A stretch of DNA of 34,356 bases from a virus (taxonomy: Duplodnaviria > Heunggongvirae > Uroviricota > Caudoviricetes). Position numbers and translations under genes: made by a program. The DNA lies in IMG/VR virus record IMGVR_UViG_2684622669_000020; one strand, 5' to 3'. Under the pieces are notes generated by a model. That model saw only the letters and a program-made list of their open reading frames with translations. It did no database searches and was not told where the DNA came from. Positions 1 through 34,356 of the stretch are shown here, in pieces. Numbering within the stretch: the stretch's first letter is position 1; every line of letters begins with the position of its first letter.

Positions 1-669
1 ACCTTTAGGACCCTGTTCACCCCGTGGCCCTTGCTCGCCCTGAGGGCCGGTGGGTCCTGGTGTTTTTGCAATTTCCTTCGCTTCTTCCAGCGCTGTCAGT
101 GCACCGGACTCGTGCAACTCCGCGTTTTTTGCTGCCTGTTCTGCACGATCTGCATCCAGTGAAACCGAAGACACAATTTGTTCCACGTGCTTTTTATCTT
201 CGGCAACGGCTTCTGCATTCTGCTGTACGTTATCCGCCAGCGTCTGACAGTCTGCCTTTATCTTCTGCGCATCAGCGACGTGTTGCCCGGCCTGTTGTTC
301 GCTTTTCGCTGCAGCTTCCGCGCTCTGCTGCGCCTGCGCCACCATTTCCTCGAAGCGTTTCACCACGTCGGGTTTGAGGTCGCCTTCATTGGGGGCGGTC
401 AGAAAATCATTCAGTGTGCCGGGCTTTGAGTCATCGTATACAGCGATATCACCCACGCAGCACTTGGGGCCGTTCTTTTGCTTGATGTGTACGGTGTATT
501 TGCCTTTTTGCGCTTCAAAGGCATACTGTCCCGCCGCATCGGTTTCAATAACCGCGAATGATTCAGTGACCACCTCACTGGTATTAACCAGTGCATCTAA
601 ATAAATTTTGCATTCCGCCATCGGAACGCCAGCGCCATTAATAAGCGCGCCTGAGATTAATACAGACAT
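1..669 (-). CDS. Side tail fibre protein, N-terminal part (gene continues beyond window start)
   Basis: Uninterrupted minus-strand frame from ATG 669-667 to position 1 (my own translation; absent from the ORF track because no stop lies in the window). AGAGG precedes the ATG. N-terminus MSVLISGALINGAG...VYDDSKPGTLNDFL resembles the prophage side-tail-fibre N-terminal domain as I recall it. Gly-X-Y collagen-like repeats GPTGPQGEQGPRGEQGPKG at 1-57. Confidence 0.7.
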   Translation of the reverse strand, partial: MSVLISGALINGAGVPMAECKIYLDALVNTSEVVTESFAVIETDAAGQYAFEAQKGKYTVHIKQKNGPKCCVGDIAVYDDSKPGTLNDFLTAPNEGDLKPDVVKRFEEMVAQAQQSAEAAAKSEQQAGQHVADAQKIKADCQTLADNVQQNAEAVAEDKKHVEQIVSSVSLDADRAEQAAKNAELHESGALTALEEAKEIAKTPGPTGPQGEQGPRGEQGPKG

Positions 670-683
670 AAAACCTCTGAATG

Positions 684-714: not shown

Positions 715-1290
715 TTATTCAAAGTCTGACCAGTCAATATCTGGCGCGTTTTCCGGTTGAATGCGATTTAACTTTATTCGTAATTTCCTGAGGGCTGTCA
801 GCTGTTCCTGTTCTTCTGGCGTCGCTTCACCAAAATCAACGGCATCCTGTAAAACGGCGATTTGCTCTCCCATCTGTTTAAGCAGACCCACTTTCTTCTC
901 TGCCGCCTGATTTATCAGCGCATTACGCCTGGCTTCTTCATCTGTCACCCACTGACTGCCATTCCAGCGTTGGTATTCGCCATCAGGAGAAACAGAAGTC
1001 ACATTTTCAGGAAGGCTTCCCAGTTCAGACACTGTTACAGCTACTCCGGTTTCTGTTGAATAAACCGTTTTCCCTCGGTGGTCTTCCATCAGATGCCATT
1101 TCATTTCATCAGCATTAAACACGGCAGCAAAACCCGCCGGAATATCAGGAGGCGCAATATCTGTTGAATTAGCTGGCAGACCTGTATGAGGTGGAATATA
1201 TGCGTCGCTTTCGCCAATAAATTCATTTGTGCCATCGAGATAATTAAATACACGAATGGTTTGTGCTTCTGCACTCATTTTGAAAGTCAT
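715..1290 (-). CDS. Tail fibre assembly protein (Mu U / Tfa-like)
   Basis: 191-aa ORF directly downstream of the fibre gene with start overlapping its stop (TAATG); size, position and sequence typical of fibre assembly chaperones. Confidence 0.75.
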
Positions 1291-2273
1291 TATGCCAGCC
1301 TCACAATATAGTTATATGCAATGTTTTTGACGGTGTTTTCGGTATTGCCTGTTGGATTTACCGTGATGGTGTGCCCGTGCGCACCCAATGCCACAGTGTG
1401 TGCATGGGCACCAATACCTACGGTGTGGTTATGCTGACCAATATCGACAGTATGAGCATGTGCTCCGGCAGTACTGGAAATCTGATTCCTCCCTGACGCC
1501 TGCACACGTTGTTTTCCGCCGACAGAGTCGCCGCCATAAACACCACCGACACTGTGCGTATGATTTCCTGTGTTATTTGTTGATTTTGTGCCGTGGTTAA
1601 ACGTGCTGACTGTCTTGGTGCCGTAGTCAAATGAACTTGTCGTTTTCGTTCCTAAATCGGTATTTGACGCACTGGCACTGTGGGTATGCGACTTGATGCC
1701 ATCCTGTTCCTGAGACAATACGGCACGACCACTGGCAGGCTTACCCTTGATAGTCCAGCCGCGCATATCAGGAATAACCCCGGACGGATAGGCAACCGCA
1801 AGTTTAGGGTAAGAGCCTTTATCAAAACTTTGCCCCTGCATTAAGGCATAACCGGATGGCACAGAATCAGATGGCCACGGGATTGGTGTCCCGACCGGTA
1901 AAGCCGTACCCTGTAAATCAGCAATTTTTTTTGCTAACGCCTTTATTGCCTTTGGGGTGGCAGCCAGTTCTTCTGAATCACTGTCTGTTGCACTACTGAG
2001 CTGAACGATACCCTTCTTCGTTAATGATGCGTCAGGAACTTTTTTCCCGACATATAAGGCCAGCGCCTCAACCAGTTGATTCTGTTTTTTCGGATCCGGG
2101 GTTACGCCAGCCTCTTTAAGGACGTTAATCACCTCCTGCTGCAAATCGCGCGTTGCCGCCTGATGATTATTCATATATTCGGCGTAAACGATGGTTCCCT
2201 CAATTCCCTGAGTGGGGTCACCATCATGAAATAACTTATCCGGCGTATTCACCGGGGGCATTAAATTCTGCAT
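1290..2273 (-). CDS. Tail fibre protein (Mu S-like) with His-X-His repeat tip
   Basis: 327 aa; N-terminal region [25 protein letters not shown] typical of Mu/P2-type fibres; C-terminal repeats [21 protein letters not shown]. Confidence 0.8.
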
Positions 2274-26914: not shown

Positions 26915-27625
26915 TTACACCCTCCCCAGTGCCAGCGGTCTGTTGCTCTGACCATTAACTCCCTGATGCAGCCTGGCGTTTTTTCCGGCGATAAAACCGG
27001 CAGTAGCGGCAAACTCTGCACCCCGGCACGCTTTAGCCGTACGCATATCCCCGTCGCGCAGTCCTTTAGTGCTGTGCAGATTCTTTCTGTAAAGCTCAAG
27101 GCGGCTTTTTTCTTCCGGGGAGACGTCATACACCGCAATGACATCACGGGCACCAAAGACCCAGCCTTCGCAGAACTGGTCGCCACGGGCCACCCGCGTG
27201 GACGGGCCGCAACGTTTGCAGTGTTTATCCTGATATTTCTTGCGCTCTGCCATCATCTGACGGGAAAGCACATCAAACGCGTAAGCCGCGATTTCCGGGC
27301 GGCTGTCAGAGCCATAAAAACGCACGTGACGTTTGAGTGAACCAGAAGCCCGGTACTCACCGGAGATGTAACACTCGACGCCGAAGGCTTTACAGACCAG
27401 GTCACACAGGATGTGCATATAACGCGGCGGCGTACTGGCATCACTCGGCGCACCCGCGCTGGCAGCTTCCTGAATGTCGAACAATTCAGCGTCGTTTTCG
27501 CTGATGCCATGCTGGCGCATATAAGCCTGGGCTTTTGCAATAGCGTTAGCGGCTTCTTCCGGGCTTGATGTTCCTCTGGCAAGGTGTAACAGCTTTTTAA
27601 TTTTGGCGATGTATTTATCTTTCAT
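26915..27625 (-). CDS. DUF2786-like early protein
   Basis: 236 aa; N-terminus MKDKYIAKIKKLLHLARGTSSPEEAANAIAKAQAYMRQHGI matches the DUF2786-type N-terminal signature as I recall it; Cys-rich C-terminus. Confidence 0.6.
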   Translation of the reverse strand: MKDKYIAKIKKLLHLARGTSSPEEAANAIAKAQAYMRQHGISENDAELFDIQEAASAGAPSDASTPPRYMHILCDLVCKAFGVECYISGEYRASGSLKRHVRFYGSDSRPEIAAYAFDVLSRQMMAERKKYQDKHCKRCGPSTRVARGDQFCEGWVFGARDVIAVYDVSPEEKSRLELYRKNLHSTKGLRDGDMRTAKACRGAEFAATAGFIAGKNARLHQGVNGQSNRPLALGRV

Positions 27626-27638
27626 GGTCGTCTGAACC

Positions 27639-27821
27639 TCAGCATCCTGAATTCTGAATTACGCAACTTCCGGCACGGCCTTCAGGAACGTGGGGAGTTC
27701 GTTCTGGCTGCGGCGCTGGATGATCATCTGCTGTCGATTGAGAACTGGTCGCAAGACGATTAAAACAAACGATTGTCAGATTAATTTCGCGGGAGAATTT
27801 TTTTTGCTTAGCGATATTCAT
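27639..27821 (-). CDS. Possible small ORF in AT-rich spacer
   Basis: 60 codons with GAGGAAG upstream of ATG 27821; low-complexity sequence, so uncertain. Confidence 0.3.
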   Translation of the reverse strand: MNIAKQKKFSREINLTIVCFNRLATSSQSTADDHPAPQPERTPHVPEGRAGSCVIQNSGC

Positions 27822-27875
27822 AAATAAACTTCCTCAGAATCAGGCGCAGACCTGTTTACCTGCGCCATAAAAAAA

Positions 27876-28274
27876 TCAGAAATCAGAATCGAAATCGAAA
27901 ACGTCAGTTAATTCCCGCTTCAGTGAAACGCGCTCAGAATAAAAGCCATTGCTCTCACTGCACCATCTGACGGTCACACAGCCTTTTGATGTACCGAACT
28001 TAAAGAAACTCCATGTCTGATGACCTTCCCCGACATCACATTCTTCTGTAACCACTTCAGCCTCTGTTAGCGGTTCGCCTTGCAGGTCGTCAAGGTTTCC
28101 GACGATGTCCTCAATCCAGACTTTTTCGCAGCAGTCCTGAAAGTGAAAAAACGTAAACACGGTCCCCCATACTCCGCAGGAATAATCACCACGAAAAACA
28201 AGTTCATCGTTTTCATTCTTAAATACTTCTTTAAATGTACGCCCAAGCATTTCATTGATAACGGTAACGCTCAT
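27876..28274 (-). CDS. Acidic hypothetical protein (moron-like)
   Basis: 132 aa, GGAGAA SD; about 26 Asp/Glu versus about 10 Lys/Arg by eye; AT-rich gene flanked by AT-rich spacers with hairpins. Confidence 0.6.
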   Translation of the reverse strand: MSVTVINEMLGRTFKEVFKNENDELVFRGDYSCGVWGTVFTFFHFQDCCEKVWIEDIVGNLDDLQGEPLTEAEVVTEECDVGEGHQTWSFFKFGTSKGCVTVRWCSESNGFYSERVSLKRELTDVFDFDSDF

Positions 28275-28354
28275 TTCTGTTTCTCCAGATTCAGGCGTAA
28301 GCCAGCCCCGACGGGTTTACGCCTGTTTTAAATAACAATTAAAAACAAATTAAA

Positions 28355-28761: not shown

Positions 28762-29406
28762 TTAAACTCCTGCAATATCCAGCGGGATTGCGCGGTATTC
28801 ATCAGAATCACCGACGCGCTCATACACGCGGATATAGCTTCTGCTGCCAACCACCTGGACGGCTTCACCAATCAGTTTCATGGCGTTATCCCAGCGTTCC
28901 TCCGTAATATCGAGACGACGCAGAGCCAGAACGCGCCCGGTGTTAATGTTGCCTTCCTTGTCCGTGCTGAATGCCTCACTGATGATGGCTTTAATTTCAG
29001 GGCGCGCTCCTTCCGTCCAGTCAGCCAGGCAGTCATCAATCAGTGCCTTCGCGGTCTGAATGCGTTCATCAAGCGCGATACGGTCCTGCATAGCGCGCTG
29101 AATCTTGTAACGCCCGTCAAAGCTGTAAAGCGTGATATTGCCTTTTTTGCCGCCTTTCACAGCGCCGTATTTCTCCGCCGACAGGTCAATAAACGCCTGA
29201 ATATCACCAAACGCACGCAGTTTCAGTTCACGCAGTGAGGCAGAGGCAGCAATCACCATCTCCACAAGCTCACCGACCAGCTGCTCACGGTCGCGGTCAA
29301 TATCTTTGATAAGGCTTTCAGGTGTCATTACGCCACGGGCATCCACCCAGTAACCTTCAGGCGCTTGAGTTTTCGTGTATTGCTTAACTTTATTTTCAGT
29401 CGTCAT
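28762..29406 (-). CDS. Conserved Mu-like early-region protein (possibly DUF3164 family)
   Basis: 214-aa ORF with GAGGTAAT SD upstream of ATG 29406; no similarity to Mu Gam as I recall it. Confidence 0.6.
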   Translation of the reverse strand: MTTENKVKQYTKTQAPEGYWVDARGVMTPESLIKDIDRDREQLVGELVEMVIAASASLRELKLRAFGDIQAFIDLSAEKYGAVKGGKKGNITLYSFDGRYKIQRAMQDRIALDERIQTAKALIDDCLADWTEGARPEIKAIISEAFSTDKEGNINTGRVLALRRLDITEERWDNAMKLIGEAVQVVGSRSYIRVYERVGDSDEYRAIPLDIAGV

Positions 29407-29435
29407 AATTAAATTACCTCAGTAATATTTACAGA

Positions 29436-29672
29436 TTAATTTGTGTTATGTGCGCAAGGCGCAACGTTTTCAGAAAAAAGATTCACGCCGTTATAGTCAT
29501 TTCTGAGCGTTTCCTTGATAACATCATGTAATCTTGTTGCCACCTGAAACTCCTTTTCGGAAGCTCCGTCCTCCGAATAACTCCCCGTGGTCTGGGTTAA
29601 AACACAGCCTTTTTCATCGGTATAGATAATTACTTCTAACTTAACCGCCATGTTTTTCTCCTTTAAAATCAA
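29436..29672 (-). CDS. Hypothetical small protein
   Basis: 78-aa ORF (alternative ATG at 29651) in the early-gene array. Confidence 0.4.
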   Translation of the reverse strand: MILKEKNMAVKLEVIIYTDEKGCVLTQTTGSYSEDGASEKEFQVATRLHDVIKETLRNDYNGVNLFSENVAPCAHNTN

Positions 29673-29832
29673 ATGATTTAAAAATAATTTCGTTCATAAA
29701 ACAGTGAGTTTTTATGATAATGTCGGAAACCTGCTCTCCCGTGACATCAGGCGGCAACTGATACGTCGCGACGGTTTTCTCCGGTTTACCTGGCCTGTCC
29801 AGGCTGAAAGTTAATTCAAGCTCCAGTGACAT
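29641..29832 (-). CDS. Hypothetical small protein
   Basis: 63-aa ORF in the early-gene array. Confidence 0.4.
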   Translation of the reverse strand: MSLELELTFSLDRPGKPEKTVATYQLPPDVTGEQVSDIIIKTHCFMNEIIFKSFDFKGEKHGG

Positions 29833-29842
29833 TTTTCACCTC

Positions 29843-30094
29843 TCAATGCATTTGTGTCTCTTGAGGAATATACGGACATCCCTGTGCCAGTTGTTTCACG
29901 TAGTCATGGTAGATTTGCAGATCAAGCCGTTCATTTCCGTGTTTCTCCTTCAGAACCGTACAAATAGCACCGACAGTCCCCAGAGTTCTTGCTGCTTCTT
30001 CGAGTGTGGCATTGTCGCCATTTTCCACCCGAATAAGGTTATGGCACTGGTTATTACCCAGGTCGGTAAATACTATTGTTAATTTCACGCTCAC
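29843..30094 (-). CDS. Hypothetical small protein
   Basis: 83-aa ORF, GTG start with GAGGAA 8 nt upstream. Confidence 0.45.
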   Translation of the reverse strand: MSVKLTIVFTDLGNNQCHNLIRVENGDNATLEEAARTLGTVGAICTVLKEKHGNERLDLQIYHDYVKQLAQGCPYIPQETQMH

Positions 30095-30109
30095 TTTTAA
30101 TTCCTCGTT

Positions 30110-30349
30110 TTATTGCCATACGACGGTGCAGCCGTCGATACAGGACGTTTTAACCACGCGGCGCAGGCCGCTGAATCTCTGGATGATTTCCGTTACCGGC
30201 CATACAGGACCCCCCACGGGCGGGCAGGCATAAACCACAGGTAAACGGTGATGCTGTCCCGTTACACGGCCACCGGTGGTGTGGATGGCCACACGGGCAC
30301 GGGAACGGACGGCGTTAATGGTCTGCTTGTCCATCGTCTTGTTCTCCAT
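30110..30349 (-). CDS. Hypothetical small protein downstream of B
   Basis: 79-aa ORF; ATG overlaps the B stop (ATGA). Confidence 0.45.
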   Translation of the reverse strand: MENKTMDKQTINAVRSRARVAIHTTGGRVTGQHHRLPVVYACPPVGGPVWPVTEIIQRFSGLRRVVKTSCIDGCTVVWQ

Positions 30350-31242
30350 CAGTGAATTAACATTTCTGCGAAATCATCAATAGCCTGCACACTGACCGGC
30401 GCATCGCTGATATCACAAATCCGGTAGACCCCACGCACAAGTTTAAACAGGCGTCGGGCATTGCCCCGTGAGCGTGTGTAAAGTGCTTCACAGATTTCAG
30501 GCGCTGCTGCTTCCGGCATCAGTTCGGCGGCTATCTGGATGAAATCCTTCTGCGCCAGCGTATCGCCGAGGTCCAGCGAAAGAGCCACCCGACTGTATAG
30601 CTGCGCGAACTCCCCACGATTGCCTTTAAGATTAATCAACAGGCGCGGCATACCAGCCAGGGCAACACCGACGCCCGCCTTGTCATGCAGACGACGCAGA
30701 ACTTCCAGCGCACGATAGGGGAGCAGTTCGGCTTCATCCACCATCAGCAGGCGACCGGAGTCACGCAATTCGTGTACGCAGGCATTAATCAGTTCGTGAA
30801 TATTGCCGCGAACCTTTACCCCCAACTGGCGGCACAGTTCCTCCAGCAGTGTCCTGGCTGTATAGCCCGGGTCAGCCTCAATCAGTATTGCGTCCCGGTT
30901 TCTGGCGGCGTATTCGCGCAAAATCATTGTTTTGCCAAGACCTGCCGCGCCATACAACACGCTAATTTCACACTCCAGATGAGCATAGGCCAGCGCCTCC
31001 AGCCCTTTGGCGGCCATACCTGTAGTCACAAAACTTGCTTTTACACGCCGGTTGTTTTCTTTTTCCCGTTCACGGCTGACAAAGGCAGAAATTCGCTCTT
31101 CGATATCAGTGATATCGCCCTGATATTTACCCTGCAAATACTGGTTGATAACGGCGCTGCTACGACCAATAGCACGGGCAACGTGGGTCTGCGTATAGCC
31201 GCGACGGGCCATTACGTCATTTAATTGCGTAATTAAACTCAT
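30349..31242 (-). CDS. B: Transposition ATPase B (MuB-like)
   Basis: 297 aa; N-terminal HTH then Walker A GAAGLGKT and D-E motif MVDEAE; directly downstream of the transposase. Confidence 0.85.
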   Translation of the reverse strand: MSLITQLNDVMARRGYTQTHVARAIGRSSAVINQYLQGKYQGDITDIEERISAFVSREREKENNRRVKASFVTTGMAAKGLEALAYAHLECEISVLYGAAGLGKTMILREYAARNRDAILIEADPGYTARTLLEELCRQLGVKVRGNIHELINACVHELRDSGRLLMVDEAELLPYRALEVLRRLHDKAGVGVALAGMPRLLINLKGNRGEFAQLYSRVALSLDLGDTLAQKDFIQIAAELMPEAAAPEICEALYTRSRGNARRLFKLVRGVYRICDISDAPVSVQAIDDFAEMLIH

Positions 31243-31259
31243 ATTAAATACCTTTTAAA

Positions 31260-33335
31260 TTAACGGTTGTTTGTGCCGTCTTTCTTTAAATTGCGGTCAC
31301 GCTCGGATGCAAAGAAATAAAGTTCTTCTTTTTTCTTTTCCTCCTTACGCTCCAGACCAAATCCAAAATTAAAGTCAGGTCTCTGCGTAATAGCCGGGGT
31401 AAGCTCGCGTTTAGCCTCTTCGATTTTCTGCGTGGCCCGTGCAATGCGGCCTCTGGCGCGTTTCTCCTGCTGCTGTTCGATAACAGCTTTCGGGAACGCA
31501 TCAACCTTATTACCGTTCCAGATGGCATCGCAGATATAAGAACCGTCCATCCGCCTGACAATCACGCTGTTTGCGTCGTGAATGTCGTAACAAACCCTGA
31601 CTTCATTTCCGTGCTCTGCTGCCAGTTCTGTGGAGAAATAGATGTTTCTGAATAACACCACTTCACCGCGTCGCACCGTGCAGATGCTTTCCGGTCGGAA
31701 CATTTCATGCAGTTCTTCCGGCGACAGCATGTCGATTTCAGCCTTTTGCTCTTTTATCAGTTTCCGGCGATACGCTGCCGGGCTGTAATGTTCGCCATCC
31801 TCTTTGCGGGGAAGGCTGCTGTGTGGCCGGTTGTTATACCGTTTCACCTCCAGCTCTATTGCGGCCATCAGTTGCTCAAAAGTGGGGACTTCTCCCATCG
31901 CTTTAACCTGCCGCTTTGTCAGCTCTTTCCCTTTGTGGGTGGCCTTAATGGCTGACTGTGTGATGCGTTGCTGCATCATCACCGTTTCCTTGTCTGCATT
32001 TTTTGAGCAGTACGTCTGGAAACTCAGGGCCACATCTTTGGGTATTCCTTTGTTTGCCCGTTCTATTACCCCGCGCCCCTGCGGGTTACCAGGTATCCCC
32101 GTGTGATGCTCCACACCCAGCCGGGGCAGAATCCCGGTAATATCGGCATCAAGCACCCGGTTTTTTTCACCGCCCCCGTTATCGGAGTAATAAATCAGCG
32201 GTATTCCGTGTTGTGACATGCCATGACGCAATGCATCAGCAACGGCTATCACGTTCTCCGACAGGGACAGCGACCAGCCCACAATAAAGCGTTGCCCCGC
32301 ATCCATAACCAGCGTCACTTCTGGCCGGAATGTATTCCCGGTGGCAGGGTTGAATGCCATCAGTTTCATACAGTGACCATCCCCGACCCATACCGCATTA
32401 ACCGGTAATGTGCTCCAGTCGCGCCGCACAAAGGGATTGAGCGAACGCCAGGCTGAGCCGGTGGAGCGGAAACGCTCCTTAACAATCACCGGGACGTTGC
32501 TTAACACCCGTCTTACTGCGTGAACTGAAGGCAGTGCTGCCAGCATTCCCGCATCGTTCGCGTGTTTTTCATGCCACCAGGCTGAAAACTCGCGATACGC
32601 ATATTCAACGGTCGGGCGCTTCCATGAGCGATAGAACATAAAGAAATCGCTCAACCACCAGACCTGCTCCCACGGTGTTCCCTTATGATGACCGGGAGCC
32701 AGTAACGCCAGTAACTGATTGGCATCACCGCGCGCCATCAGCCAGGCGGAATACCATTCCTGTAAACTCCCTGTACTGACGCCAGTTCGCTTACCCTGTC
32801 GGGCATTGGCGGTATTACCGGCCACAATAACGCGCTCGGGCAAAGCCCCCTGGCGGATACCATCAACGATGTGTTTTATCGCTGCTGTCCTGGACATTCC
32901 TGCGTATTCACGCAGTTTATGCACTTCGGTAGCCAGCAATATCCGCGCATCAGCGATGGCCTTTTGCTTGTCGGTCAGTGCCTGAACTTCGCGTAATGCC
33001 AGTTCCGGGCATTTGACCATCACTTCCAGTTCATCGCGAATGGTGACGTTCTTAACTGCCTTCTGCTCAACCACGGCGGGCAGTTGCGCATCTTCCAGAA
33101 CCTGATGGGTCAGGCGTTGACGTAAAACCTTCTGAACATCTTTAGGTAAACTGGATATATGGTACTCATATATTTTCCCCTGAACTCCAGACTTCCTTCT
33201 TCTTGTCCAGTTCGCTCGTTTAGCTTTTTGAGTGATCCCCTGTACAGTTTTCGGTAGCCCTTGAAGCCCTGTTAGTTCATTCAACGTAAACCATTCAGGT
33301 TCGAACTTGACTTCATAGTCGTTGTTCTTATTCAT
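31260..33335 (-). CDS. A: DDE transposase (MuA-like)
   Basis: 691 aa; N-terminal domain resembles the repressor N-terminus (LxGLxGLPxTxQGIxQKAKRxxW); central integrase-like catalytic region; followed by B. Confidence 0.9.
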   Translation of the reverse strand: MNKNNDYEVKFEPEWFTLNELTGLQGLPKTVQGITQKAKRANWTRRRKSGVQGKIYEYHISSLPKDVQKVLRQRLTHQVLEDAQLPAVVEQKAVKNVTIRDELEVMVKCPELALREVQALTDKQKAIADARILLATEVHKLREYAGMSRTAAIKHIVDGIRQGALPERVIVAGNTANARQGKRTGVSTGSLQEWYSAWLMARGDANQLLALLAPGHHKGTPWEQVWWLSDFFMFYRSWKRPTVEYAYREFSAWWHEKHANDAGMLAALPSVHAVRRVLSNVPVIVKERFRSTGSAWRSLNPFVRRDWSTLPVNAVWVGDGHCMKLMAFNPATGNTFRPEVTLVMDAGQRFIVGWSLSLSENVIAVADALRHGMSQHGIPLIYYSDNGGGEKNRVLDADITGILPRLGVEHHTGIPGNPQGRGVIERANKGIPKDVALSFQTYCSKNADKETVMMQQRITQSAIKATHKGKELTKRQVKAMGEVPTFEQLMAAIELEVKRYNNRPHSSLPRKEDGEHYSPAAYRRKLIKEQKAEIDMLSPEELHEMFRPESICTVRRGEVVLFRNIYFSTELAAEHGNEVRVCYDIHDANSVIVRRMDGSYICDAIWNGNKVDAFPKAVIEQQQEKRARGRIARATQKIEEAKRELTPAITQRPDFNFGFGLERKEEKKKEELYFFASERDRNLKKDGTNNR

Positions 33336-33531
33336 AACGTGATGGCCAAATTTCTTCTGGCTTTTTACCGATCACACTAGCGACAATCATTTCTGCTTTG
33401 GGCCATTTTGTACGTAGAACATTACCCAAACTTCTTGATTTCATTCCATGCTCTCGTGAAAGCCGACTAAAGTTTGTTCCTTTCTTTTCTAGTTCCGCCT
33501 TGATATCTGACGGATGCATATCTTGTCTCAC
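33328..33531 (-). CDS. ner: Ner-like DNA-binding protein
   Basis: 67 aa; C-terminal KWPKAEMIVASVIGKKPEEIWPSRYE closely matches the Mu Ner C-terminus; GTG start with GAGGTAGAG upstream (alternative ATG at 33519); overlaps the transposase start. Confidence 0.8.
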   Translation of the reverse strand: MRQDMHPSDIKAELEKKGTNFSRLSREHGMKSRSLGNVLRTKWPKAEMIVASVIGKKPEEIWPSRYE

Positions 33532-33777
33532 GTCTCTACCTCTTCACATAAATCAACAGATATGAGATCTTGAGTGATTACTCGCATGTGTACGCGATTG
33601 AGTTACTCACCTGCGTGAAGAATACTAGATTTAAACAATGTTTAAGTCAACATGTTTAAATCTATATTTAAAACATTTTAGTAAGCAGGTGGCTTATCAT
33701 TTTGTTTTTGAAGTAATTTTTGTGTTTTAAACAAAAGCTCTGTTTCATGCTCTTTTGTTTAAATCTAAGGGGTTAGA
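33532..33777. promoter_or_regulatory. Divergent c/ner operator-promoter region with repeated TGTTTAAA sites
   Basis: AT-rich 246-bp spacer between divergent c and ner; at least six copies of TGTTTAAA / TTTAAACA, including the near-palindrome TTTAAACAATGTTTAAG. Confidence 0.5.
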
Positions 33778-34356
33778 ATGAAACAAGAATGGGTTGCCGC
33801 AAAAGACCTGGTAGGGCTTCATGGTTTACCTGCCACAATTCAGGGAATTCACCAAAAAGCCAAAAGGGGCGGATGGCGCAAAGAGAAAAGAATTACACCT
33901 GGTGTGAAGGGACATCAGGTATACTTCTACTTGCCTGATTTGCCTGAAAAAATACGCTGCTCCTTGGTGTCGAAAGACAGAGAAACTCCAGTGAGGAATG
34001 ATTTAAACAAAGGGTTGATATCAATACTGGAAATGACATCCGCAGAAGATCAATTCAATCTTTTTCGCGCTTTGTGTGAATTTGGCATCAAAGGAGTCCT
34101 AGAACACCTACAACAACCCACCAGGCAAGCTACGCAGGCCGACAGCGACCAGGACGAACAGGAGAATGCCATCAGAAGTCTAAACATCAGGGAATCGCTT
34201 AAAGACGTTATATGTATGGCTCTAGATGGTAATGAAGAAACCGACAAAGAGATTTTGCGACGCATCGAATCTCGTGCACGGGCTGGGTCGCCAGGTGGTC
34301 AGACCGTTGCCACGCCGGAGCAAGAAACGAAGCCTGTAAGCAAAAAATCAGCATGA
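33778..34356 (+). CDS. c: Mu-type repressor c
   Basis: 192 aa; N-terminal domain similar to the transposase N-terminus; divergent from ner; AGGGG SD; stop codon is the last 3 nt of the window. Confidence 0.8.
   Translation: MKQEWVAAKDLVGLHGLPATIQGIHQKAKRGGWRKEKRITPGVKGHQVYFYLPDLPEKIRCSLVSKDRETPVRNDLNKGLISILEMTSAEDQFNLFRALCEFGIKGVLEHLQQPTRQATQADSDQDEQENAIRSLNIRESLKDVICMALDGNEETDKEILRRIESRARAGSPGGQTVATPEQETKPVSKKSA

What the first reader, a model, noticed from the sequence alone, without database searches (positions are those of the whole stretch)
33100..34356. Immunity module (c, ner, transposase N-terminal domain) is AT-richer than the rest
By eye, c, ner and the first ~80 codons of A are clearly lower in GC than the transposase core and structural genes. 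The repressor and transposase N-termini share the DNA-binding motif LxGLxGLPxTxQGIxQKAKRxxW. Mu and D108 differ precisely in this c-ner-A-N-terminus block, so this looks like an exchanged immunity and end-recognition cassette.
Basis: partly seen in the sequence, partly recalled or inferred. Interest (0 to 1): 0.5.

Follow-up and report, generated by a model that had tools for sequence, protein, structure and literature searches.

The report
Swapped immunity cassette in Mu-like prophage
The AT-rich end of this Mu-like E. coli prophage is a swappable block (repressor DNA-binding domain, operators, ner, first 67 transposase codons) that sets which related phages the lysogen is immune to; phages Mu and D108 showed the same pattern in 1986, so it is a clean but ordinary example.

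Summary
GC is 0.420 in 33100-34356 against 0.545 for the rest of the window. No other 1257-bp window falls below 0.458. The stated motif is present letter for letter in both proteins, which share 40% identity over 60 aa (E 4e-15).

The exchange reading is confirmed. Six E. coli relatives are 89-98% identical through B and A. All six lose homology at exactly 33134/33135 (A codon 67/68, the end of the N-terminal winged helix). Homology returns inside c at about 34069-34181. Conversely, two IMG/VR contigs carry the same cassette at 99-100% identity on backbones only 81-95% identical. Mu and D108 break at the equivalent A codon (~64).

Three corrections are needed.
- The exchanged block is 33135 to about 34068. 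The C-terminal half of c (GC 0.50) belongs to the shared backbone.
- AT-richness is generic to this control region. It also occurs in Mu, D108 and the alternative cassettes, so it is not evidence of exchange on its own.
- The swapped transposase domain corresponds to MuA I-alpha, which binds the operator/enhancer, not the phage ends. The left terminus is invariant across cassette types.

This cassette type is rare: 3 of 5426 complete E. coli genomes. Verdict: a new member of a known kind, of modest interest.

The parts
31260..33134 (-). Transposase A, codons 68-691. This is conserved backbone: the presumed end-binding region, the DDE core and the Mu-transposase C-terminal domain.
   Evidence: 88.8-98.0% DNA identity to six relatives carrying other cassettes, ending exactly at 33134. 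Pfam rve and Mu-transpos_C. GC 0.529, GC3 0.574.
33135..33335 (-). Transposase A, codons 1-67. This is the N-terminal winged-helix domain (counterpart of MuA I-alpha) and forms the left edge of the exchanged cassette.
   Evidence: No DNA homology to six relatives. All types converge at CAGAAGGTTTTACGT, which is codon Q68. phmmer hit to PDB 1TNS MuA 1-76 at E 9e-8, aa 15-73. Pfam PF02316. GC 0.403. 100% identical in L013 and L014, where the adjacent A core is 91-95% identical.
33328..33531 (-). ner (67 aa, GTG start), the Cro-like early regulator. It overlaps the A start by 8 nt.
   Evidence: Pfam HTH_35 at E 1.7e-25. 43% aa identity to the ner of the T2 cassette and to Mu Ner, 89% to the Salmonella relative. 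GC3 0.294.
33578..33616 (.). Two direct repeats 25 bp apart: TTACTCGCATGTGT and TTACTCACCTGCGT. They are candidate Ner-binding sites.
   Evidence: the repeat finder family D2. The T2 cassette has two different palindromes 26 bp apart at the equivalent place next to its own ner. Binding is inferred, not shown.
33622..33650 (-). Early-promoter-like site (Pe analogue) reading toward ner-A-B: -35 TTGACT, 17-nt spacer, -10 TAGTAT.
   Evidence: Consensus scan, 9 of 12 matches. It is the only such site in 33400-33900 and is overlapped by operator repeats. This is a consensus match only.
33626..33675 (.). ner-proximal operator cluster of TAGATTTAAACA / TGTTTAAA-type repeats, overlapping the Pe-like promoter.
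   Evidence: The 12-mer has 3 exact copies and 7 copies at <=2 mismatches in the window, against 1.55 expected; 6 of the 7 lie in 33626-34009. The repeats are conserved in the Salmonella relative while the spacers diverge.
33718..33785 (.). c-proximal operator cluster (TGTTTTAAACAA, TTGTTTAAATCTA, TAGAATGAAACA), overlapping the c ribosome-binding site and start codon.
   Evidence: TTTAAACA exact: 7 in the window against 0.94 expected. Conserved in the Salmonella L006 alignment.
33778..34068 (+). Repressor c, codons 1-97: winged-helix DNA-binding domain (aa 4-69) plus linker. This is the right part of the exchanged cassette.
   Evidence: Pfam PF02316 at 30.7 bits, cutoff 23.3. PDB 1TNS at E 5e-6 and Mu repressor 1G4D at E 5e-5. 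Relatives carry CI-type or XRE-type HTH domains here instead.
34069..34356 (+). Repressor c, codons 98-192: C-terminal domain shared with all cassette types, ending ...KPVSKKSA. The window ends on the stop codon.
   Evidence: 75-94% DNA identity to relatives, resuming at 34069 (three relatives), 34082/34084 (two) and 34181 (one). 68 of 72 database homologues share only this half, joined to other N-terminal domains. GC 0.500.

Best explanation
The window is a Mu-like transposable prophage of E. coli. Its right end carries the lysogeny/transposition control region in the Mu arrangement: c reads one way and ner-A-B the other.

Positions 33135 to about 34068 form a self-contained specificity cassette that homologous recombination has exchanged between related prophages. 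It holds four elements that must match each other:
- the repressor's winged-helix DNA-binding domain (c aa 1-97);
- the repeated TTTAAACA-type operators in the 246-bp intergenic region;
- ner, with its own probable sites;
- the transposase N-terminal winged helix (A aa 1-67), a paralogue of the repressor domain.

Proposed mechanism, inferred by analogy with Mu:
- The repressor binds the two operator clusters and shuts off the early promoter.
- On induction, Ner limits c and early transcription.
- The transposase N-terminal domain binds the same operator clusters, using them as a transpositional enhancer. Repressor therefore blocks both transcription and transpososome assembly.

Because these parts co-specify one another, they travel together. 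Viable recombination joints fall in inter-domain linkers: A codon 67/68 and c codon ~97.

The low GC has two sources. One is the generic AT-richness of this regulatory region. The other is the cassette's separate history, since its coding GC3 (0.29-0.41) differs from both the backbone and the alternative cassette's A N-terminus (GC 0.571).

What is shown: the composition step, the paralogy of the two N-termini, the sharp common breakpoint, the same cassette on diverged backbones, operator repeats enriched and conserved, and invariant phage ends. What is inferred: DNA-binding specificities, enhancer function, and the heteroimmunity phenotype.
For: Same backbone, different cassette. L002 is 98.0% identical over 30001-33134, shows nothing until 34084, then 75.5%. 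L003, L009, L010, L011 and L012 behave the same way, and all six break at 33134.

Same cassette, different backbone. In IMG/VR contigs L013 and L014, A N-terminus is 100% identical, ner 100% and c 99-100%. Their B is 81-83%, A 3' half 90% and A 5' core 91-95%. L014 also carries the other type of attL terminus.

At least four cassette types sit on this backbone. Frequencies in 5426 complete E. coli genomes: T1 (this one) 3, T2 55, T3 1, T4 16. The backbone occurs in 126 genomes.

The GC change point at 33122 coincides with the break.

The two N-termini are paralogous: 40% identity, E 4e-15. Both hit MuA I-alpha (1TNS) and the Mu repressor DNA-binding domain (1G4D) and Pfam PF02316.

Operator repeats are enriched, overlap a promoter-like site, and are conserved against a 72%-identical Salmonella relative.

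Mu against D108: 98.2% identity from Mu 1519 (A codon ~64) onward, and no homology over 360-1518.

Literature. I-alpha is a winged HTH that binds the enhancer; I-beta and I-gamma bind the ends; the linker aa 65-89 tolerates insertions (PMC3362531). The enhancer overlaps O1-O3 (PMC3145075).

One strain (STEC316) carries two family members with different cassettes, as expected if the cassettes confer different immunities.
Against: No binding, immunity or transposition data exist for this element, so every functional step rests on analogy with Mu. A is only about 26% identical to MuA overall.

The direction of exchange is unresolved. The Salmonella relative has a T1-like cassette and an A core that have diverged to about the same degree (about 70% aa each). 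T1 could therefore be the old resident, and the common E. coli types the incomers.

No donor closer than about 70% was found outside this cassette's own carriers.

AT-richness is shared by the alternative cassettes and by Mu and D108, so composition alone does not discriminate.

No IHF consensus lies between the operator clusters, unlike Mu. The promoter call is a 9/12 consensus match, at a count no higher than shuffles give.
Confidence: 0.85

Rival explanations
1. The low GC is purely functional. Control regions need AT-rich promoters, operators and sites for nucleoid proteins. Small DNA-binding proteins rich in Lys, Asn and Ile also pull GC down. On this view the composition says nothing about exchange.
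For: The intergenic region is the lowest part (0.317). The same region is AT-rich in Mu (c 0.408, intergenic 0.266), in D108, in the alternative cassettes (0.436-0.444) and in the Salmonella relative.
Against: GC3, which is largely free of protein-composition effects, is 0.29-0.41 in the cassette genes against 0.574 in the A core. The homologous A N-terminus of the T2 cassette has GC 0.571, so low GC is not required for that domain. The composition step coincides with a recombination joint. This rival accounts for part of the composition signal but does not remove the exchange, which is shown independently.
Confidence: 0.3
2. There was no exchange. The region diverged in place by rapid diversifying selection on immunity specificity.
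For: Immunity determinants are under diversifying selection in temperate phages generally. The spacer between the operator clusters is hypervariable even between near-identical cassettes (intergenic 89% against 97-99.5% in flanking coding sequence, window versus E423).
Against: Identity falls from 98% to undetectable within a few bases. The relatives' repressor N-termini belong to different Pfam families (PF07022 or PF01381 against PF02316). An identical cassette sits on backbones 5-19% diverged.
Confidence: 0.03
3. The direction is reversed. The winged-helix (T1) cassette is the ancestral partner of this transposase lineage, and the common E. coli cassettes with CI-type or XRE-type repressors are the acquired ones. 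The window would then be the unexchanged form.
For: The Salmonella relative L006 is collinear with the window across cassette and A, with similar divergence throughout: A aa 1-67 70%, A core 71.5%, c N-terminus 69%. Paralogy of the c and A N-termini is the Mu/D108 condition.
Against: The window's backbone is 98% identical to a T2 carrier (L002), while T2 carriers differ from each other by up to about 8-11%. The T1 carriers therefore nest within T2 diversity. The T1 cassette is 99-100% identical on backbones that are 81-95% identical, which indicates recent movement of T1 itself.
Confidence: 0.25

Closest known systems
Mu versus D108 control region (heteroimmune Muvirus pair; Mizuuchi, Weisberg & Mizuuchi 1986, NAR 14:3813, cited in PMC3820752 ref 52)
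   Same: Same gene order (c, then divergent ner-A-B). The repressor and transposase N-termini are paralogous winged helices. The non-homologous block covers c, ner and the first ~64 codons of A (Mu 360-1518). Here the break is at A codon 67/68. The region is AT-rich in both.
   Different: This is a different phage lineage: A is about 26% and B about 30% aa identical to Mu, with no DNA similarity to Mu. Here the c-side joint lies inside c at the domain boundary, so the C-terminal domain is shared, whereas in Mu/D108 essentially all of c differs. The operator repeat (TTTAAACA type) and ner sites are different. No IHF consensus was found.
SfMu of Shigella flexneri (PMC4406740)
   Same: A Mu-family backbone carrying the immunity genes of another member: c 89% and Ner 98% identical to D108, but 24% and 47% to Mu. 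This is natural reassortment of the same cassette.
   Different: SfMu is a true Muvirus. The paper reports protein identities only and does not map the joint inside A.
Immunity (imm) regions of lambdoid phages (lambda, 434, 21, P22 hybrids)
   Same: A repressor, operators and a Cro-like gene are exchanged as a unit between otherwise homologous genomes and define heteroimmunity. Joints lie at gene or domain boundaries. (Established knowledge.)
   Different: No transposase domain is involved in lambdoid phages. Here the cassette must also carry the transposase's enhancer-binding domain.
Pseudomonas D3112/DMS3-type transposable phages
   Same: The transposase N-terminus is a PF02316-like winged helix. 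The window's c N-terminus hits their A N-termini at 37-39% aa identity. By my own recollection their repressors are CI-like, as in the T2-T4 cassettes of this family; this was not checked here.
   Different: Unrelated backbone and host. Not the source of this cassette (<42% identity).

Membership tests
Mu/D108-type immunity-plus-enhancer-specificity cassette | c transcribed divergently from ner-A-B, with ner immediately upstream of and coupled to A | tested here: met
   ORF map. ner 33328-33531 overlaps the A start at 33335 by 8 nt. B follows at 31242, then kil (phrog_2679).
Mu/D108-type immunity-plus-enhancer-specificity cassette | Repressor and transposase N-termini are homologous winged-helix DNA-binding domains | tested here: met
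   BLASTP 40% over 60 aa, E 4e-15. Both match PDB 1TNS and 1G4D and Pfam PF02316 above the gathering score.
Mu/D108-type immunity-plus-enhancer-specificity cassette | Between heteroimmune relatives, homology breaks inside A at the I-alpha/I-beta linker | tested here: met
   Six of six relatives break at 33134, A codon 67/68. Mu/D108 break at codon ~64. The linker aa 65-89 is insertion-tolerant in MuA (PMC3362531).
Mu/D108-type immunity-plus-enhancer-specificity cassette | Clusters of repeated operator sites between c and ner that overlap the early promoter | tested here: met
   The repeats are enriched over shuffles, form two clusters, overlap a promoter-like site and are conserved in a 72%-identical relative. 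This is sequence-level evidence only.
Mu/D108-type immunity-plus-enhancer-specificity cassette | The transposase N-terminal domain binds the operator region as a transpositional enhancer, in competition with repressor | not testable with these tools
   Inferred from paralogy and from Mu (PMC3362531, PMC3145075). Needs footprinting and transposition assays.
Mu/D108-type immunity-plus-enhancer-specificity cassette | The cassette determines superinfection immunity (heteroimmunity between types) | not testable with these tools
   Indirect only: strain STEC316 carries two family members with different cassettes.
Mu/D108-type immunity-plus-enhancer-specificity cassette | IHF site between the two operator clusters | tested here: not met
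   No WATCAANNNNTTR match with <=1 mismatch in 33532-33800. This is a feature of Mu's enhancer, not necessarily a defining one.
Genus Muvirus (Mu, D108, SfMu) | Nucleotide-level relatedness to Mu across the genome | tested here: not met
   Sensitive blastn of 30300-34356 against 50,697 phage records returned no Mu or D108 hit. A is 25.6% and B 29.9% aa identical to Mu. The element is Mu-like in organisation but not a Muvirus.
Ner/HTH_35 family (PF13693) | Profile match above the gathering score over the whole small protein | tested here: met
   E 1.7e-25, 89.2 bits against a cutoff of 25, aa 4-67.
   The terminal ~24 bp CCAGAATTGATCACTACCCCACA is essentially invariant in T1-T4 and in the Salmonella relative. 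L014 has the T1 cassette with the other attL variant.

The most novel reading that the evidence does not exclude
In this prophage family one conserved repressor C-terminal domain is joined to at least three unrelated kinds of DNA-binding domain: the Mu winged helix PF02316, the CI-type PF07022 and the XRE-type PF01381. The transposase always keeps a winged-helix N-terminus. Only the rare cassette in this window keeps the Mu arrangement, where repressor and transposase share a paralogous domain and probably the same sites.

If the common CI-type cassettes have uncoupled operator from enhancer, then repressor-transposase competition at the enhancer is optional rather than intrinsic to transposable phages. 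This window and L002, 98% identical outside the cassette, would form a natural isogenic pair for testing what that coupling contributes.
Probability: 0.3. Interest if true: 0.5.

Novelty: new member of a known kind. Interest (0 to 1): 0.3.

Why it matters
It gives a base-pair-resolution example, outside the Mu/D108 pair, that transposable phages reassort immunity together with the transposase's enhancer-binding domain. The recombination joints sit in domain linkers: A codon 67/68, and the start of the repressor's C-terminal domain. It also corrects a tempting over-reading, because AT-richness is a property of the region and does not prove transfer.

In practice it means that prophage typing or immunity prediction for this E. 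coli family should use the c N-terminus, ner and A N-terminus block rather than the transposase core. It also identifies near-isogenic natural pairs for testing how repressor-transposase competition at the enhancer works.

Tried and rejected
- A scan of one genome per species (185,579 genomes) with the c N-terminal domain found no relative. The tool relies on exact peptide words, so this is weak negative evidence. No donor lineage could be named.
- In the phage collection, no record has a c N-terminus more than 42% identical. Most hits are transposase N-termini of Pseudomonas phages.
- A protein search with A aa 1-171 returned only partial fragments and did not help count A N-terminus types. 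I used fetched loci instead.
- An IHF consensus between the operator clusters was not found, so no IHF claim is made.
- A c promoter: only 8/12 consensus candidates were found, and these are not asserted.
- The original D108 control-region paper (PMC339817) is not held. It is cited only through the reference list of PMC3820752.
- In-place divergence without recombination was considered and rejected.
- No structure prediction was run. Sequence matches to solved MuA I-alpha and Mu repressor domains, plus Pfam above threshold, were judged sufficient.
Full report
**What is at the coordinates**

The window is a Mu-like transposable prophage whose genes lie mostly on the minus strand. At its right end lie:
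- B, 30349-31242 (-), 297 aa;
- A, 31260-33335 (-), 691 aa;
- ner, 33328-33531 (-), 67 aa, GTG start, overlapping the A start by 8 nt;
- a 246-bp intergenic region, 33532-33777;
- c, 33778-34356 (+), 192 aa.

The window ends on the c stop codon.

Pfam gives:
- c aa 10-69: HTH_Tnp_Mu_1 (PF02316), 30.7 bits against a cutoff of 23.3;
- A aa 20-152: the same family (E 4e-17), plus rve and Mu-transpos_C;
- ner: HTH_35 (E 1.7e-25);
- B: an AAA_22/TniB-like ATPase.

kil follows B (phrog_2679).

**Checking the observation**

Overall GC:
- GC of 33100-34356 is 0.420, against 0.545 for the rest.
- Other 1257-bp windows have mean 0.545 and sd 0.038. The lowest is 0.458, so no other window reaches the observed value.

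GC by part:

| Part | GC |
|---|---|
| A codons 1-67 | 0.403 |
| ner | 0.402 |
| intergenic | 0.317 |
| c codons 1-97 | 0.433 |
| c codons 98-192 | 0.500 |
| A core | 0.529 |
| B | 0.534 |

Third-position GC:

| Part | GC3 |
|---|---|
| A N-terminus | 0.403 |
| ner | 0.294 |
| c N-terminus | 0.412 |
| A core | 0.574 |
| late genes | 0.55-0.76 |

The drop is therefore not just an effect of amino-acid composition. A likelihood change point inside A falls at 33122 (GC 0.530 to 0.399).

The motif LxGLxGLPxTxQGIxQKAKRxxW is present exactly in both proteins. The two N-termini are 40% identical over 60 aa, E 4e-15. Both match the solved MuA I-alpha domain (1TNS) and the Mu repressor DNA-binding domain (1G4D).

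- The low-GC part of A is 67 codons, not about 80.
- The C-terminal half of c is not AT-rich.
- Smaller low-GC islands exist in the tail-fibre genes and among the small early genes.

**Is it an exchanged cassette? Same backbone, different cassette**

The backbone occurs in 126 of 5426 complete E. coli genomes. The segment 33135-34068 occurs in only 3, all from poultry.

Six relatives were fetched: L002, L003, L009, L010, L011 and L012.
- They are 88.8-98.0% identical to the window through B and A.
- All six lose homology at exactly 33134.
- Homology resumes inside c at 34069 (three relatives), 34082/34084 (two) or 34181 (one).
- At the nucleotide level all cassette types converge at CAGAAGGTTTTACGT, which is A codon Q68.

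The relatives carry at least three other cassette types. Each has its own A N-terminus and its own ner. Their repressor N-termini are CI-type (PF07022) or XRE-type (PF01381) helix-turn-helix domains, not the Mu winged helix.

Frequencies of the types in complete E. coli genomes are 3 (this type), 55, 1 and 16.

**Is it an exchanged cassette? Same cassette, different backbone**

Two IMG/VR contigs (L013, L014) carry this cassette. Identity to the window by segment:

| Segment | Identity |
|---|---|
| A N-terminus | 100% |
| ner | 100% |
| c | 99-100% |
| A 5' core | 91-95% |
| A 3' half | 90% |
| B | 81-83% |

L014 also has the other variant of the left-end sequence.

The two observations together show recombinational exchange. 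They exclude in-place divergence.

**Comparison with Mu and D108**

I fetched both genomes. Mu and D108 are 98.2% identical from Mu 1519 onward, which is A codon ~64. They show no detectable homology over 360-1518. They are 79.6% identical over 1-359, which covers the left end and the last few codons of c.

The difference is on the c side. In this family the joint lies at the start of the repressor's C-terminal domain, so that domain is shared by all cassette types. Of 72 database homologues of c, only three share the N-terminal domain (P0001, P0002 and P0010). Nearly all the others match only the C-terminal half.

This element is Mu-like but not a Muvirus. A is 25.6% and B 29.9% identical to Mu, and there is no DNA match to Mu.

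**What the composition does and does not show**

The alternative cassettes are also AT-richer than their backbones (0.436-0.444 against 0.52-0.53). So are Mu (c 0.408, intergenic 0.266), D108 and the Salmonella relative. AT-richness is thus a general property of this control region.

There is also a cassette-specific component. The T2 cassette's A N-terminus has GC 0.571, against 0.403 here. The GC step in A also coincides with the recombination joint. Composition was a good pointer but is not proof on its own.

**'End recognition' is not supported**

The exchanged A segment corresponds to MuA subdomain I-alpha. In Mu this is a winged helix that binds the transpositional enhancer. [quoted passage not shown] The enhancer overlaps the repressor operators O1-O3 (PMC3145075).

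The left end lies about 300 bp beyond the window. In all ten loci examined it ends in ...CCAGAATTGATCACTACCCCACA, followed by unrelated host DNA, whatever the cassette type. The cassette is therefore an immunity and enhancer-specificity module, not an end-recognition module.

**Anatomy of the control region**

- The 12-mer TAGATTTAAACA occurs three times exactly (33626, 33653 and 33756). It occurs seven times at <=2 mismatches, against 1.55 expected, and six of those seven lie in 33626-34009.
- The core TTTAAACA occurs 7 times in the window against 0.94 expected, and four of these lie in 33630-33763.
- The repeats form two clusters, 33626-33675 and 33718-33785. The first overlaps the only sigma-70-like site found, on the minus strand: -35 at 33650-33645 and -10 at 33627-33622. 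The second overlaps the c ribosome-binding site and start codon.
- In an alignment with a Salmonella relative (72% DNA identity, identical repressor recognition segment TIQGIHQKAKR), the repeats are conserved while the spacers are not.
- Next to ner lie two direct repeats 25 bp apart (33578-33591 and 33603-33616). The T2 cassette has two different palindromes 26 bp apart in the same place. These are probably Ner sites that co-vary with the ner type.
- No IHF consensus was found.

**Mechanism**

The steps below are inferred by analogy with Mu.
- The repressor's winged helix binds the operator clusters and silences the early promoter.
- Its conserved C-terminal domain probably mediates oligomerisation and controls stability, as in Mu. 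Its tail ...KKSA resembles ...KKAV in Mu and D108. The role of this domain is from my own knowledge of Mu.
- Ner acts as the Cro-like counter-regulator.
- The transposase N-terminal domain binds the same clusters as an enhancer.

Because the repressor domain, the operators, ner with its sites, and A I-alpha co-specify each other, they are inherited as one block. Only joints in the domain linkers give viable hybrids.

The direction of exchange is open. The T1 carriers nest within T2 backbone diversity (98% identity to L002, against about 89-92% among T2 carriers). T1 is also near-identical on diverged backbones. Both facts favour recent movement of T1. However, the Salmonella relative shows T1-like sequence and A core diverged to the same degree, so T1 may be an old partner of this transposase lineage.

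**Verdict**

It is a textbook-type phenomenon, known from Mu/D108 since 1986 and from lambdoid imm regions, here seen in a different Mu-like lineage. I rate it a new member of a known kind.

The more interesting residue is that most family members pair a CI-type or XRE-type repressor domain with a winged-helix transposase N-terminus. The Mu-style sharing of sites between repressor and transposase may therefore be optional. This window and L002 form a near-isogenic natural pair for testing that.

Noticed in passing
window 34356 (end) and L001 6458-6757: The window stops on the c stop codon. The prophage left end lies about 300 bp further on. It ends ...CCAGAATTGATCACTACCCCACA and has three CCAGAWT-containing repeats, which are probable transposase-binding sites.
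   Followed up: partly
window 1-670 (- strand): The window starts inside an ORF with collagen-like GPxG repeats at its truncated C-terminal end (MSVLISGALING...). It lies beyond the tail-fibre and tail-fibre-assembly genes (715-2273). The right end of the prophage is therefore also missing from the window.
   Followed up: no
window 715-2273; 27500-28300; 29250-30100: There are other low-GC islands. The tail fibre and assembly chaperone have GC3 0.36-0.47. Several small early genes of unknown function have GC 0.40-0.45. These are also classic mosaic modules.
   Followed up: partly
L001 2099-2449 versus window about 30349: The 99.5%-identical relative Z1323CEC0011 has an extra 333-nt hypothetical gene between kil and B that the window lacks.
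   Followed up: no
L006 2527-5556 (Salmonella CP019189.1): The Salmonella relative's A is 71% aa identical to the window's, but its B is only 42% identical. This points to another mosaic joint between A and B.
   Followed up: no
NZ_CP041431.1 (STEC316) 610256-614212 and 2025306-2025866: One E. coli strain carries two members of this prophage family with different control cassettes (T2 and T4). This is as expected if the cassettes confer different immunities.
   Followed up: partly
L012 4235-4411 (B1172): The T4 cassette's A N-terminus is itself a hybrid. Its 3' half is T2-like and its 5' half is unique, so a further joint lies inside the winged-helix domain. RefSeq annotates a shortened A start there.
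   Followed up: no
L001-L003, L008-L012 flanks: Every relative is inserted at a different chromosomal site: yigF/corA, scpB, yjiL, alx, agaF, phnJ, inside another prophage's tail genes, and ydiT. This fits random transposition.
   Followed up: partly
window 33676-33717: The spacer between the two operator clusters is hypervariable even between near-identical cassettes. Against E423 the intergenic region is 89% identical, while the flanking genes are 97-99.5% identical.
   Followed up: no
L002 5656-5697 versus window 33578-33616: Paired sites next to ner differ by cassette type but keep a 25-26 bp spacing. They are probably Ner operators that co-vary with ner.
   Followed up: partly
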